Shown here in pieces: positions 55,301-58,300 of a stretch of 64,000 nt of DNA. Position numbers: made by a program. The stretch lies in assembly GCF_057098645.1 (NCBI RefSeq), contig NZ_CM169472.1, one strand, 5' to 3'. Numbering within the stretch: the first letter of the stretch is position 1; every line of letters starts with the position of its first letter.

Positions 55301-58300
55301 CAACAACATCGCAAGAATTAATGCGATTTTACGCATACTGCTTATTCCTTGATAAAACGGTTACACACGCCAGGACGGCAAAATGGATCCCAAATCGGAA
55401 TAGTCTGGATTTGGAAGGCTCACATTATCACCAAAAGAGTTTTACGCAAGCCTGTCGGAGCAGGGTTTACAAATTTAGCATAAGTAGCGATTTTCAAAAG
55501 TCCGAAAAGCGCATGTAAAACGGATTTATTTCTTATTTCCTAAGATTATGAAACCTCGATAGTAATATGCAAATAAGCAATTAATAATCCCGCTTCTCCT
55601 TTCTGTCCCCTAATATTCTCATCTTCATTCAGCCGGTTTATATCTTCCATGTATTTGTTCTCTCACGACAGATTGCTGCGCCTGGGCGTGTTTTCTTTGC
55701 CCCTTTTGCTTCCTTTACTCGCCAGCGCCGCCACACCGCACATCTCCCTCAGCTACGCCGCCCGCCAGCGGATGCAAAACCGTGCGCGGGTACTCAAACT
55801 GTACCAGGCACATCTGAAAAAACAGGCCAGCTATATTGTGGAAGGCAATGCCGAAAGCAGACGGGCGCTGCGCCAGCACAACCGTGAGCAGATAAAACAG
55901 CACCCGGAGTGGTTTCCTGGCCCGCTGAAATTGAGCGACCGACGCTGGCAGGCGCTGGCGGAAAACAATCACTTTTTAAGCAGCGATCACCTGCATAATA
56001 TTACCGAAGTGGCGATCCACCGCCTGGAGCAGCAGCTTGGCAAGCCTTACGTCTGGGGCGGCACGCGGCCCGATAAAGGCTTCGACTGTAGTGGGTTGGT
56101 TTTTTATGCCTACAACAAGATCCTCGAGGCGAAGCTCCCGCGCACGGCCAATGAGATGTATCACTACTATCGGGCAACAATTGTGGCGAACAACGACCTG
56201 CGCCGGGGAGATTTGCTGTTTTTCCATATCCACAGCCGCGAAATTGCCGATCATATGGGCGTGTATCTGGGCGATGGGCAATTTATCGAGTCGCCACGCA
56301 CCGGGGAAACCATTCGGGTAAGCCAGTTAGCTGAACCTTTCTGGCAGGACCATTTTTTGGGCGCGCGCAGGATTTTGACGGAAGAGACGATTTTGTAAAT
56401 GGGTAATATTGACGAACTGGCAAAAGGCCGGATGCCACACGGCATCCGACTTGTTTACATCTGGGCTGAAAACTCACGTTCTAAGACATCAACAATGAGC
56501 TGGTTTTTTGAAATGGAATGTTGTCTGGCGACGATGGTCAGCCGCGAATCAATGTGATGAGGAACACGAAGCGTCAGGCGTTTTTGCTCTTCTTCTTCAC
56601 GAAAAGGGGCAATACCGTCCTCTTCACAATCCGCCATCCACTCATCCAGCGCGCTTTCGCCCTCACGATATAATGCCTCAATGCTTGTGGCTACAAAGTC
56701 ACAATAACCGTTTACATTGAGGAATTTGCCGCGAAATGCATTGATATCGGCTTCAAATGTCACTGCGGCTGGTTGACCTTTAATTGTGATAATGTTCGAT
56801 GCTTTATTCATAATCTACCCCTACACAGTTAACAAACCACTCCTTAAGACCTGCTACTGCGCCTTTATCCATCACATTCTTTGGATGTGGCTCATGTGTA
56901 CTGAATTTGGTCGTTCCAATCTGAAATTTCCTTCTGGACCCATTGTTATTTTTTATTGTTCCACCCGCCGCTTTAATGAGCGCAACAACATCATCCCATT
57001 TAATTCCAGATTTTGGCGGCTCCGTCATTACATCGTCGAATGTTTTTCTATGGCGGGAGCCTAGCGCGCTGACCTTAATCATACTATCAATCCATGACAT
57101 CATTGTATGGTGTCATCGTAGTATGTTTGCAATGTGACGTCAATCAATGGTGTCAGATGCATGCAAAGCATGGAAAAGAATCCCCATCAACTCACTGCCC
57201 CCATAATCTTCAACTCCAGCTCATCCGGCACTTCGTTATACGACAGCACATGCAGCCCCGGCGCAAACAACCTTGCATAGCGAGCCAGCAAAGGGCGCAG
57301 CTGCGGCGGCACCAGCAGTACCGGGTCTTTCCCCGCCGCTTTCATCTGCTCTTTTACCTGCGGCATCGTGCTCTGGAACTGGTTGAGCATATTCGGGTCG
57401 ACCGGCACGCTGTCGAGCATCACTTTGCCGCCCTGTTGCGCCTGATTCACCACGTTGGTCAGCAGATTTTCCAGCTCATTATTCAGCATATACACCGTAA
57501 GCTCCTGCTTGCGAACGAACGGATGGGTAATGCTGCGCCGCAGCGCCAGGCGTACATCGGCTGCCAGCAGAATGTGATCTTTAGTCACCGTGCTACTGGC
57601 GACCAGCACGGTGGCGATGGTGACGATATCGCGCAGGGAAACGCCTTCGGTCAGCAGCGCACGGTACACTTTCAGCAACTGGCTGTAATTCAGCGCCGCG
57701 CTCAAATCCTCCGCCAGGCGCGGTGCCATCGACGACAGGCGGTTATGCAACTGTGTGATGTCATCATAGTTAAACAAATCAGGAATATAGCTGCGCACAA
57801 TCTTGTTTACATGGGTGGCAATCACGCTGGCGCTGTCGATTACCTGATACCCCATATTCAGCGCCTTCGCTTTCTGCGCGGGCTGGATCCAGGTCACCGG
57901 CATCCCGTACGCCGGGTCGTTCCCCAGCACGCCGTCTATCTCGCCGTAGGTTTCGCTGGAGGGCAGGGCCATCAGTTTATCCGCCGGAATATCCGCTTCA
58001 TCGGCCTTAATGCCGTTGATGAAAATAGCGTACTGGCTGGGCTTGAGGCGGAAATTTTCCCGAATGCGGATCTCCGGCAGCAGCACGCCGTTGCCGTCAG
58101 AAATCACCTGCCTCACGCCGCGAATCCGCTGGGTGAGTGGGTTGCCCTGCGCTTTATCGACCAGCGCTACTAGCTTGTAGCCAAGGCTTAAACTGATAGG
58201 CTCGATAAGCGGAATGGTTTCCCAACTGACCTGTTGCTCGCTGGTTTCAGTGATAGTGCGGGTCAGCGTTTCGAGGCTTTTCTCTTCCGCCTCCGCCGCC

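What the first reader, a model, noticed from the sequence alone, without database searches (positions are those of the whole stretch)
56804..57103. HicA-like toxin is atypical: Arg-Arg where HicA proteins carry the conserved His, plus an N-terminal extension
By-eye alignment places GSRRKF of this ORF opposite the GSHHxF motif of canonical HicA, whose histidine is generally considered catalytic. The ORF also carries roughly 25 extra N-terminal residues if translated from the first ATG. This may be a divergent, attenuated or mechanistically different toxin, or the start codon is miscalled.
Basis: inference. Interest (0 to 1): 0.5.

Follow-up and report, generated by a model that had tools for sequence, protein, structure and literature searches.

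The report
HicA toxin with relocated histidine
This E. coli gene is the toxin of an ordinary-looking hicA-hicB toxin-antitoxin pair, but it belongs to a large, uncharacterised branch of the HicA family in which the usual catalytic histidine is replaced by arginine and a different, invariant histidine sits on the neighbouring strand.

Summary
HMM and profile-profile alignments place Arg57 (99-aa numbering) at the catalytic histidine of solved HicA toxins (His24 in B. pseudomallei, GSH in Y. pestis HicA3).

This is a family trait, not a defect of one gene:
- The protein belongs to a cross-phylum HicA subfamily of at least 4,189 protein clusters, typically 84-92 aa.
- The subfamily signature is GSR(V)R ... 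H-x-P-H-P plus a conserved N-terminal helix.
- In 144 representatives the canonical position is Arg in 113 and His in 1. His70 and His73 are each His in 140.
- His70 aligns with Thr37 of canonical HicA. In a pLDDT 96.7 model it is the inferred cross-strand partner of Arg57.

Both genes are under purifying selection in E. coli. The partner has a HicB fold with a ribbon-helix-helix domain, and the same pairing recurs in distant relatives.

The first ATG lies inside an operator-like palindrome downstream of the predicted -10 box. The likely start is Met8, giving 92 aa. About 20-28 extra N-terminal residues are still real and conserved.

The pair is already annotated and catalogued (Gerdes 2024; Ton-Hoang 2012). 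The rearranged active site was not described in anything I could search. It is most likely an active RNase toxin with a relocated histidine, which is not demonstrated.

The parts
56804..57082 (-). hicA coding sequence from the likely true start (Met8 of the 99-aa ORF). It gives a 92-aa toxin, RefSeq WP_000598757.1.
57083..57103 (-). The 7 in-frame codons (MMSWIDS) from the first ATG. They are probably 5' UTR or operator, not coding.
   Evidence: They lie inside the palindrome ATGACATCAT/ATGGTGTCAT, 12 nt downstream of the predicted -10. The region is not conserved as protein (P0011 reads MTSKGSR). In phage-contig homologues the equivalent operator ATG is out of frame.
56999..57082 (-). The subfamily-specific N-terminal extension (residues 1-28 of the 92-aa form). 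It includes helix alpha0 (residues 9-19, 57026-57058) and the basic motif S-R-H-R-K-T.
   Evidence: It lies outside the Pfam domain. It is conserved across 144 representatives: K/R10, H/Q/N11, T14, P22, W29. DSSP gives helix 9-19 with pLDDT about 97.
56924..56941 (-). G55-S56-R57-R58-K59-F60. This is the beta1-beta2 turn and the start of beta2. R57 occupies the canonical catalytic His position.
   Evidence: Composition at this column is R 113/144 and H 1/144.
56882..56899 (-). T69-H70-E71-P72-H73-P74. This is the end of beta3 and the following loop. H70 and H73 are the two near-invariant histidines of the subfamily.
   Evidence: H is present in 140/144 at each position and in 120/120 of the best profile hits. 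H70 aligns with Thr37 of canonical HicA.
56455..56811 (-). hicB antitoxin, 118 aa. Its start overlaps the hicA stop by 8 nt (ATGAATAA). It has an N-terminal HicB fold and a C-terminal ribbon-helix-helix domain.
57115..57143 (-). Sigma-70-like promoter: -35 TTGACG (57143-57138), 17-nt spacer, -10 TACGAT (57120-57115).
   Evidence: Consensus scan, 9 of 12 matches. This is a prediction only.
57094..57116 (.). Operator-like imperfect palindrome ATGACATCAT-N3-ATGGTGTCAT, overlapping the -10 box and the expected transcription start.
   Evidence: the repeat finder I2, 90% complementary arms. The TGAYRTCA half-site motif is retained upstream of homologues in E. coli alleles and phage contigs.
57135..57155 (.). 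Second copy of the 21-nt operator-like element (TGACGTCAATCAATGGTGTCA), overlapping the -35 box.
   Evidence: the repeat finder D1, 81% identical to the first copy.
56429..56448 (.). GC-rich hairpin between the convergent yafL and hicB genes. It is a candidate bidirectional terminator.
   Evidence: Terminator-like site. On the minus strand it is followed by GCCTTTTGCC.

Best explanation
The ORF is the toxin gene of a hicA-hicB type II toxin-antitoxin operon. The operon sits between yafL and the lfhA/Flag-2 remnant of a B1/O145-type E. coli chromosome. The toxin has the HicA dsRBD-like alpha-beta-beta-beta-alpha core but belongs to a distinct, widespread subfamily of 84-92 aa proteins. In this subfamily (i) the canonical beta2 catalytic His is replaced by Arg (GSR). 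(ii) The residue inferred to lie directly across on beta3, Thr in canonical HicA, is an invariant His (H70). (iii) The His of the following P-H-P loop (H73) is also invariant. (iv) A conserved N-terminal helix with a basic K/R-H-R-K-T motif precedes the core. I infer that the catalytic histidine has moved to the neighbouring strand on the same exposed sheet face. On this reading R57, K59 and the alpha0 basic motif bind or stabilise the RNA phosphate, and the protein is an active, ribosome-independent RNase toxin rather than an attenuated one. HicB would neutralise it through its N-terminal HicB-fold domain. HicB would also repress the operon by binding, through its RHH domain, two TGAYRTCA-type palindromes that overlap the -35 and -10 boxes. 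Translation most likely starts at Met8 (57082). The first ATG is part of the operator. Shown: homology, fold, alignment register, conservation statistics, operon architecture and purifying selection. Inferred: catalytic role of H70/H73, RNase activity, toxicity, operator function and the start site.
For: - Alignment register R57 = His24 and H70 = Thr37 comes from HMM against PDB and hhalign.
- Subfamily statistics: position 57 is R in 113/144 and H in 1/144. H70 and H73 are each H in 140/144. GSRVR, FHRPHP and DKG are invariant in the 120 best profile hits among at least 4,189 clusters.
- The only representative with GSH (P0191) lacks both later histidines.
- Canonical controls show G-S-H invariant and Thr at the beta3 position.
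- The AF2 model has pLDDT 96.7, strands 50-55 and 58-63 and a 2-residue turn. That implies R50/H63 (R57/H70) are cross-strand partners. F53/F60 and V51/F62 face the core, so R50, K52 and H63 share the exposed face.
- The partner has a HicB fold and an RHH domain.
- Four distant members are each followed by a PF05534 HicB gene.
- E. coli alleles show 8-10 synonymous versus 1 non-synonymous change in hicA and 4-5 versus 0 in hicB.
- The MIK start is used by RefSeq, homologues and Gerdes Table S1.
Against: - No member of this subfamily has been tested for toxicity or RNase activity in any paper I could search, and no solved structure exists.
- I had no model coordinates. The R57-H70 adjacency rests on DSSP strand boundaries and hairpin geometry, not on measured distances. 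The position of helix alpha0 relative to the active face is unknown.
- In every characterised HicA the beta2 His is essential, so loss of catalysis cannot be excluded.
- R57 itself is not invariant (A, M, G and S occur in about 20% of representatives), so its role may be minor.
- A few members have His at GS+2, as in E. coli K-12 HicA, together with H70. This complicates a simple swap model.
- About 110 E. coli genomes keep hicB without hicA. That fits either a harmful active toxin or simple decay.
Confidence: 0.6

Rival explanations
1. Non-catalytic or attenuated HicA-like protein. Having lost the beta2 histidine, it only binds RNA (for example by blocking translation or sequestering transcripts), or it is a weak toxin kept as a regulator or partner of HicB.
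For: The beta2 His is essential in all HicAs tested, including H24A, H28A and H36A. Here it is Arg. The Pfam score is barely above threshold.
Against: Two histidines and several basic residues are 97-100% conserved across phyla. That is not expected for a purely structural RNA binder. The strict pairing with HicB, the overlapping genes and the purifying selection look like a working toxin-antitoxin pair.
Confidence: 0.12
2. Same fold but different chemistry or target. The H-x-P-H pair plus Arg would form a two-histidine acid-base centre of the RNase A type. With the extra basic N-terminal helix, this would give a different substrate (for example structured RNA, tRNA or rRNA) or a different cleavage specificity from canonical HicA.
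For: H70, H73, R57 and R/K59 are invariant and R71 is frequent. The conserved K/R-H-R-K-T helix is absent from canonical HicA. Canonical HicAs are described as having only one conserved His.
Against: H73 corresponds to the P-H-P His, which is also common in canonical HicA (H40). The two-His arrangement is therefore only partly new. There is no biochemical data.
Confidence: 0.2
3. Annotation artefact or decaying gene. The extension comes from a miscalled start and the Arg-Arg from drift in a chromosomal TA remnant.
For: The first ATG is probably not used. Truncated or frameshifted copies exist, such as P0022, P0031, P0032, L010 and P0074/P0078. Some genomes have lost hicA.
Against: The extension persists from the RefSeq start and is conserved and well folded. 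The Arg is the consensus of thousands of homologues. The intact pair is present in 1,369 of 5,426 complete E. coli genomes, with synonymous changes dominating.
Confidence: 0.03

Closest known systems
Canonical HicA mRNA-interferase toxins (B. pseudomallei HicA 4C26/6G26, Y. pestis HicA3 4P78, S. pneumoniae HicA 5YRZ, E. coli K-12 HicA 6HPB, T. thermophilus TTHA1913 1WHZ)
   Same: [quoted passage not shown]
- Gly-Ser turn before beta2.
- P-H-P loop after beta3.
- Pfam PF07927 match.
- Located upstream of a HicB partner.
   Different: - The beta2 catalytic His is replaced by Arg.
- The beta3 Thr is replaced by an invariant His.
- There is an extra conserved N-terminal helix of about 20-28 residues.
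- Sequence identity to the solved HicAs is only 6-17%, and phmmer finds none of them.
Class 4 hicAB operons of Gerdes 2024 (mBio 15:e03293-23; hicA upstream, HicB with C-terminal RHH)
   Same: The architecture is exactly this. The near-identical E. coli protein UIV62394.1 (the A39V allele) and its HicB UIV62393.1 are listed in Table S1 as Class 4. Many 84-aa GSRVR/HRPHP proteins are listed under Classes 3 and 4, for example Nostoc PCC 7120 BAB76976.1.
   Different: That paper classifies by gene context. It notes only that Class 4 splits into two clusters. It never mentions histidine, catalytic residues or the N-terminal extension.
hicAB insertion between yafL and fhiA in E. coli phylogroup B1 (Ton-Hoang et al. 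2012, NAR 40:3596)
   Same: It is the same locus. There hicA-hicB replace tnpA_REP (rayT/yafM) and its BIMEs, for example in IAI1. Here the pair lies between the C40 peptidase yafL and the truncated lfhA.
   Different: That paper records only the presence of the genes and gives no analysis of the protein.
PHROG 8887 'toxin' with PHROG 9151 'HicB-like antitoxin'
   Same: The match to the 85-position phage family covers residues 9-85, including the N-terminal helix (E 5e-20). Close homologues lie on nine IMG/VR viral contigs.
   Different: The window copy is chromosomal and not in an obvious prophage. The PHROG annotation is only a generic 'toxin'.

Membership tests
HicA toxin family (Pfam PF07927 / COG1724) | Significant match to the HicA_toxin profile above the curated cut-off | tested here: met
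   The score is 30.9-31.1 bits against a cut-off of 27. All 75 subfamily members scanned also match. hhalign against canonical HicA gives 95% probability.
HicA toxin family (Pfam PF07927 / COG1724) | dsRBD-like alpha1-beta1-beta2-beta3-alpha2 fold | tested here: met
HicA toxin family (Pfam PF07927 / COG1724) | Conserved Gly(-Ser) in the beta1-beta2 turn | tested here: met
   G55-S56 are present. In the subfamily G is found in 142/144 and S in 137/144.
Canonical (characterised) HicA RNases | Catalytic histidine at the start of beta2, immediately after Gly-Ser (His24 Bp, His28 Yp, His36 Sp) | tested here: not met
   Arg57 occupies this column. His occurs there in only 1 of 144 subfamily representatives. 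The protein is therefore a homologue, but I do not file it with the canonical beta2-His group.
Canonical (characterised) HicA RNases | Ribosome-independent RNA cleavage and HicB-reversible growth arrest | not testable with these tools
   This needs toxicity and RNase assays. I found no report for any subfamily member.
hicAB type II toxin-antitoxin module (Gerdes Class 4) | hicA immediately upstream of hicB, closely linked or overlapping | tested here: met
   There is an 8-nt overlap at 56804-56811. The same order occurs in distant members L014, L015, L017 and L019 and in phage contigs.
hicAB type II toxin-antitoxin module (Gerdes Class 4) | HicB with an N-terminal partial RNase H-like HicB fold | tested here: met
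hicAB type II toxin-antitoxin module (Gerdes Class 4) | HicB C-terminal ribbon-helix-helix DNA-binding domain | tested here: met
   Pfam HicB PF05534 covers residues 60-110. The profile matches Arc, Mnt and AmrZ repressors. PHROG 582 'Arc-like repressor' also matches.
hicAB type II toxin-antitoxin module (Gerdes Class 4) | Autoregulation through palindromic operators in the promoter | tested here: inconclusive
   Two related 21-nt imperfect palindromes overlap the predicted -35 and -10 boxes. Binding was not tested.

The most novel reading that the evidence does not exclude
A large, cross-phylum clade of HicA toxins (thousands of sequence clusters, including one carried by about a quarter of complete E. 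coli genomes) has rebuilt the active site on the same dsRBD scaffold. The single beta2 histidine that defines all characterised HicAs is exchanged with its cross-strand neighbour (His/Thr becomes Arg/His). The result is an H-x-P-H plus Arg centre, supplemented by a new basic N-terminal helix. This clade would then be a mechanistically distinct RNase class, with its own substrate specificity and possibly its own mode of inhibition by PF05534-type HicB.
Probability: 0.35. Interest if true: 0.55.

Novelty: new variant of a known kind. Interest (0 to 1): 0.4.

Why it matters
The catalytic mechanism of HicA is poorly defined. The literature says the family has a single conserved histidine and no obvious pocket. 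A big natural subfamily in which that histidine is replaced by Arg, while the cross-strand residue becomes an invariant His, is a ready-made evolutionary experiment. It predicts which residues form the active surface and gives simple swap mutants to test (R57H/H70T in this protein, H24R/T37H in B. pseudomallei HicA). It also warns that 'catalytic His present or absent' is not a safe criterion for calling HicA homologues active or dead in genome annotation. For E. coli, the pair is a second, uncharacterised hicAB system. It is present in about 25% of complete genomes, including O145:H28 STEC, at a variable site. The practical stakes are modest, because the gene is already correctly annotated as a HicA-family toxin.

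Tried and rejected
- phmmer of the protein against PDB sequences found nothing. Only a family profile reached HicA structures.
- NCBIfam and PADLOC gave no meaningful hits.
- The search for related loci with the diverse alignment A2 failed because no stretch was conserved enough. With A1 it found only close relatives, on 9 viral contigs.
- A cluster look-up of 10 distant representatives gave almost no names or taxa. It did show one Geobacter member mislabelled 'hexulose-6-phosphate synthase'.
- A literature search by RefSeq accession found nothing. Jorgensen et al. 2009 (PMC2631989) is not held, and Makarova et al. 2006 could not be read. I therefore cannot exclude that an early alignment figure already shows this subgroup.
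- The IncI2 plasmid HicAB and all HicAs listed in the 2024 review are canonical. They are not members of this subfamily.
- I considered modelling the HicA-HicB complex. I dropped it because the structure tool returns no coordinates or contacts, so the interface could not be read.
- I considered that the N-terminal His18 (the KHRKT motif) might be the relocated catalytic residue. I rejected this because the position is H/Q/N-variable (83, 38 and 10 of 144).
- The antisense ORF 56786-57064 (+) was treated as a mechanical artefact of the ORF listing.

Full report
**What is at the coordinates**

The window matches E. coli O145:H28-type chromosomes at 100% identity. The ORF 56804-57103 (-) encodes 99 aa from the first ATG. 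RefSeq annotates a 92-aa product starting at Met8 (MIKVS..., 57082) as 'type II toxin-antitoxin system HicA family toxin' WP_000598757.1. It is followed, with an 8-nt overlap, by a 118-aa 'HicB family antitoxin' WP_001030484.1 at 56455-56811 (-).

The pair lies between the C40 peptidase yafL (55649-56398, +) and a 5'-truncated lfhA/flhA pseudogene followed by lafU. These two are the remnant of the Flag-2 lateral flagellar cluster.

Pfam gives HicA_toxin at 30.9 bits against a cut-off of 27, covering only residues 36-84. It gives HicB (PF05534) for the partner.

**Checking the observation**

phmmer finds no solved structure for the protein. A profile of 75 relatives does reach them. It aligns 'GSr' with 'GSA' of B. 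pseudomallei HicA(H24A) (4C26/6G26) and with 'GSH' of Y. pestis HicA3 (4P78), without gaps through to the P-H-P motif.

hhalign against a deliberately diverse canonical HicA alignment gives the same register, with probability 95% and E 2.6e-8. That alignment includes B. pseudomallei, S. meliloti, plasmid-borne E. coli, Neisseria, phage HP2, streptococcal, cyanobacterial and Leptospira sequences.

So Arg57 (99-aa numbering; Arg50 in the 92-aa protein) sits at the position of the histidine shown by mutagenesis to be essential in every characterised HicA. The by-eye alignment was correct.

**The Arg is a family trait, not a lesion**

- An exhaustive HMMER scan of 1.84 billion cluster representatives found 334 relatives at E <= 1e-3. 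Most are 84-92 aa and match over residues 5-90, so the match includes the N-terminal region.
- A profile search of the 5.8-billion-cluster collection found at least 4,189 clusters at E <= 1e-5. Named sources include Chloroflexota, Nostoc and Microcoleus, Planctomycetota, Paenibacillus, Geobacter and Enterobacterales.
- In 144 full-length representatives the canonical-His column is R in 113, A in 8, M in 6, G in 5, S in 4 and H in 1.
- Two later positions, H70 and H73 (T-H-x-P-H-P), are each His in 140 of 144.
- In the 120 best profile hits, G-S-R-V-R, F-H-R-P-H-P and D-K-G are invariant.
- The single representative with G-S-H (P0191) lacks both later histidines.
- In canonical HicAs the pattern is the reverse. 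G-S-H is invariant and Thr occupies the column that aligns with H70.
- H73 corresponds to the P-H-P histidine that many canonical HicAs also have.

**Structure**

AlphaFold2 with the 75-sequence alignment gives pLDDT 96.7 and pTM 0.87. The elements are:
- helix alpha0, residues 9-19;
- a loop containing the invariant Pro22;
- the HicA core: alpha1 29-38, beta1 42-45, beta2 50-55, beta3 58-63, alpha2 73-87.

Strands 50-55 and 58-63 are joined by a two-residue turn, whose consensus Asn-Gly suggests a type I' turn. The cross-strand pairs are therefore 55/58, 53/60, 51/62 and 50/63. Positions 51, 53, 55, 60 and 62 are hydrophobic in the family and must face the helices. That leaves R50, K52 and H63 together on the exposed face.

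This adjacency is my inference from DSSP boundaries and hairpin geometry. The tool returns no coordinates, so I could not measure distances or place alpha0 relative to that face.

**The N-terminal extension and the start codon**

The extension is conserved family-wide: K/R10, H/Q/N11, T14, invariant P22 and W29. It is modelled with high confidence. It is a real subfamily feature.

The first seven codons are a different matter:
- The scan finds -35 TTGACG (57143-57138) and -10 TACGAT (57120-57115).
- The ATG-ATG at 57103-57098 lies inside the palindrome ATGACATCAT/ATGGTGTCAT (57094-57116). A second copy of that element overlaps the -35 box.
- A GGA lies 8 nt upstream of the ATG at 57082.
- Homologues start at MIK. 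Where an upstream in-frame extension exists, it is not conserved (P0011).
- In phage-contig homologues the corresponding operator ATG is out of frame.
- In the model, residues 2-3 pair with residues 89-90. This fits Met8 being the true N-terminus.

**Is it a working toxin-antitoxin pair?**

- Its C-terminus matches Arc/Mnt-type ribbon-helix-helix repressors.
- Four distant subfamily members are each immediately followed by a PF05534 HicB gene. So are the phage-contig homologues.
- The intact pair is single-copy in 1,369 of 5,426 complete E. coli genomes.
- Two divergent alleles differ from the window by 8-10 synonymous and 1 non-synonymous (A39V) codons in hicA. In hicB they differ by 4-5 synonymous and no non-synonymous codons.

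This is purifying selection, not decay. About 110 genomes retain hicB behind the same operator region but lack hicA.

**Most likely mechanism (inference)**

The protein is probably an active HicA-type endoribonuclease whose catalytic histidine has moved from beta2 to the cross-strand position on beta3. H73, R57, K59 and the basic alpha0 motif would complete the RNA-binding and catalytic surface. HicB would mask that surface and repress the promoter through the two palindromes.

The rivals are:
- a non-catalytic RNA binder;
- a genuinely different two-histidine chemistry or target;
- an artefact or decaying gene.

They are weighed in the rival explanations.

**Comparison with what is known**

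The locus is already in the literature. Ton-Hoang et al. 2012 noted that hicA-hicB replace tnpA_REP and its BIMEs between yafL and fhiA, mostly in B1 strains. Gerdes 2024 lists the near-identical E. coli protein (UIV62394.1, 92 aa) and many GSRVR/HRPHP proteins under Classes 3 and 4, and remarks that Class 4 HicAs split into two clusters. That paper never mentions histidine or catalysis.

The 2024 HicAB review and the S. pneumoniae structure paper describe a single conserved beta2 histidine as the family's hallmark. All HicAs they list are canonical.

I found no experimental work and no solved structure for this subfamily.

**Verdict**

The gene is an ordinary, correctly annotated hicAB module in its organisation. 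The toxin nevertheless represents a large, uncharacterised variant of the HicA active site. Interest is moderate. The result is not surprising enough to overturn anything, but it is a clean, testable lead on how HicA catalysis works.

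Noticed in passing
L013:1501-1933 (E. coli AR_0372), compared with window 56780-57230: About 110 complete E. coli genomes carry hicB without hicA at the same site. The operator and promoter region is kept, and a short different 5' end is fused to hicB. The result is a solo antitoxin under its own operator.
   Followed up: partly
window 57187-59656; L011:1033-1306: The lfhA/flhA gene next to hicA is a 5'-truncated pseudogene followed by lafU, which is the Flag-2 remnant. In strain 2014C-3050 the same hicAB pair sits next to a full-length flhA. The pair therefore marks the border of the Flag-2 cluster whether or not the cluster is intact.
   Followed up: partly
window 54596-55649 and 59727-61231 (from the L001 annotation): Relative to the K-12 gene order as I recall it, the two neighbouring TA pairs are absent here. 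dpaA (yafK) is followed directly by yafL, with no dinJ-yafQ. dinB overlaps yafP, with no yafN-yafO. This strain has hicAB where K-12 has rayT. The K-12 order is from memory and was not checked with the tools.
   Followed up: no
window 56429-56448: A GC-rich 8-bp-stem hairpin (CGGATGCCACACGGCATCCG) lies between the convergent yafL and hicB genes. It is a possible bidirectional terminator or a degenerate REP-like element.
   Followed up: no
P0320 (Geobacter sp. HBG05851.1), P0035 (Xenorhabdus hominickii UniRef name): Members of this HicA subfamily are mislabelled 'hexulose-6-phosphate synthase' in public databases. This is an annotation error that appears to have propagated.
   Followed up: no
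L010:2501-2707; P0074, P0078; P0022, P0031, P0032: Frameshifted or truncated hicA copies occur, with the frame lost just before the GSRR motif or with 61-65-aa E. coli variants. They sit beside intact hicB in some phage contigs and E. coli strains, a typical pattern of toxin inactivation.
   Followed up: no
window 56804-56815 and 57071-57082 (residues 89-90 and 2-3 of the 92-aa HicA): In the AF2 model the first residues (I2-K3) form a small beta-bridge with the C-terminal V89-D90. Both termini are conserved only in the 92-aa Enterobacterales forms (MIKV... and ...GV-x-Y/H-D/E). The 84-aa forms lack both.
   Followed up: no
L002-L010 (IMG/VR viral contigs): Close homologues (59-68% identity) of the pair lie on nine predicted viral or prophage contigs. 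They match PHROG 8887/9151 ('moron, auxiliary metabolic gene and host takeover'), which suggests phage carriage of this hicAB type. PADLOC has no model for it.
   Followed up: partly
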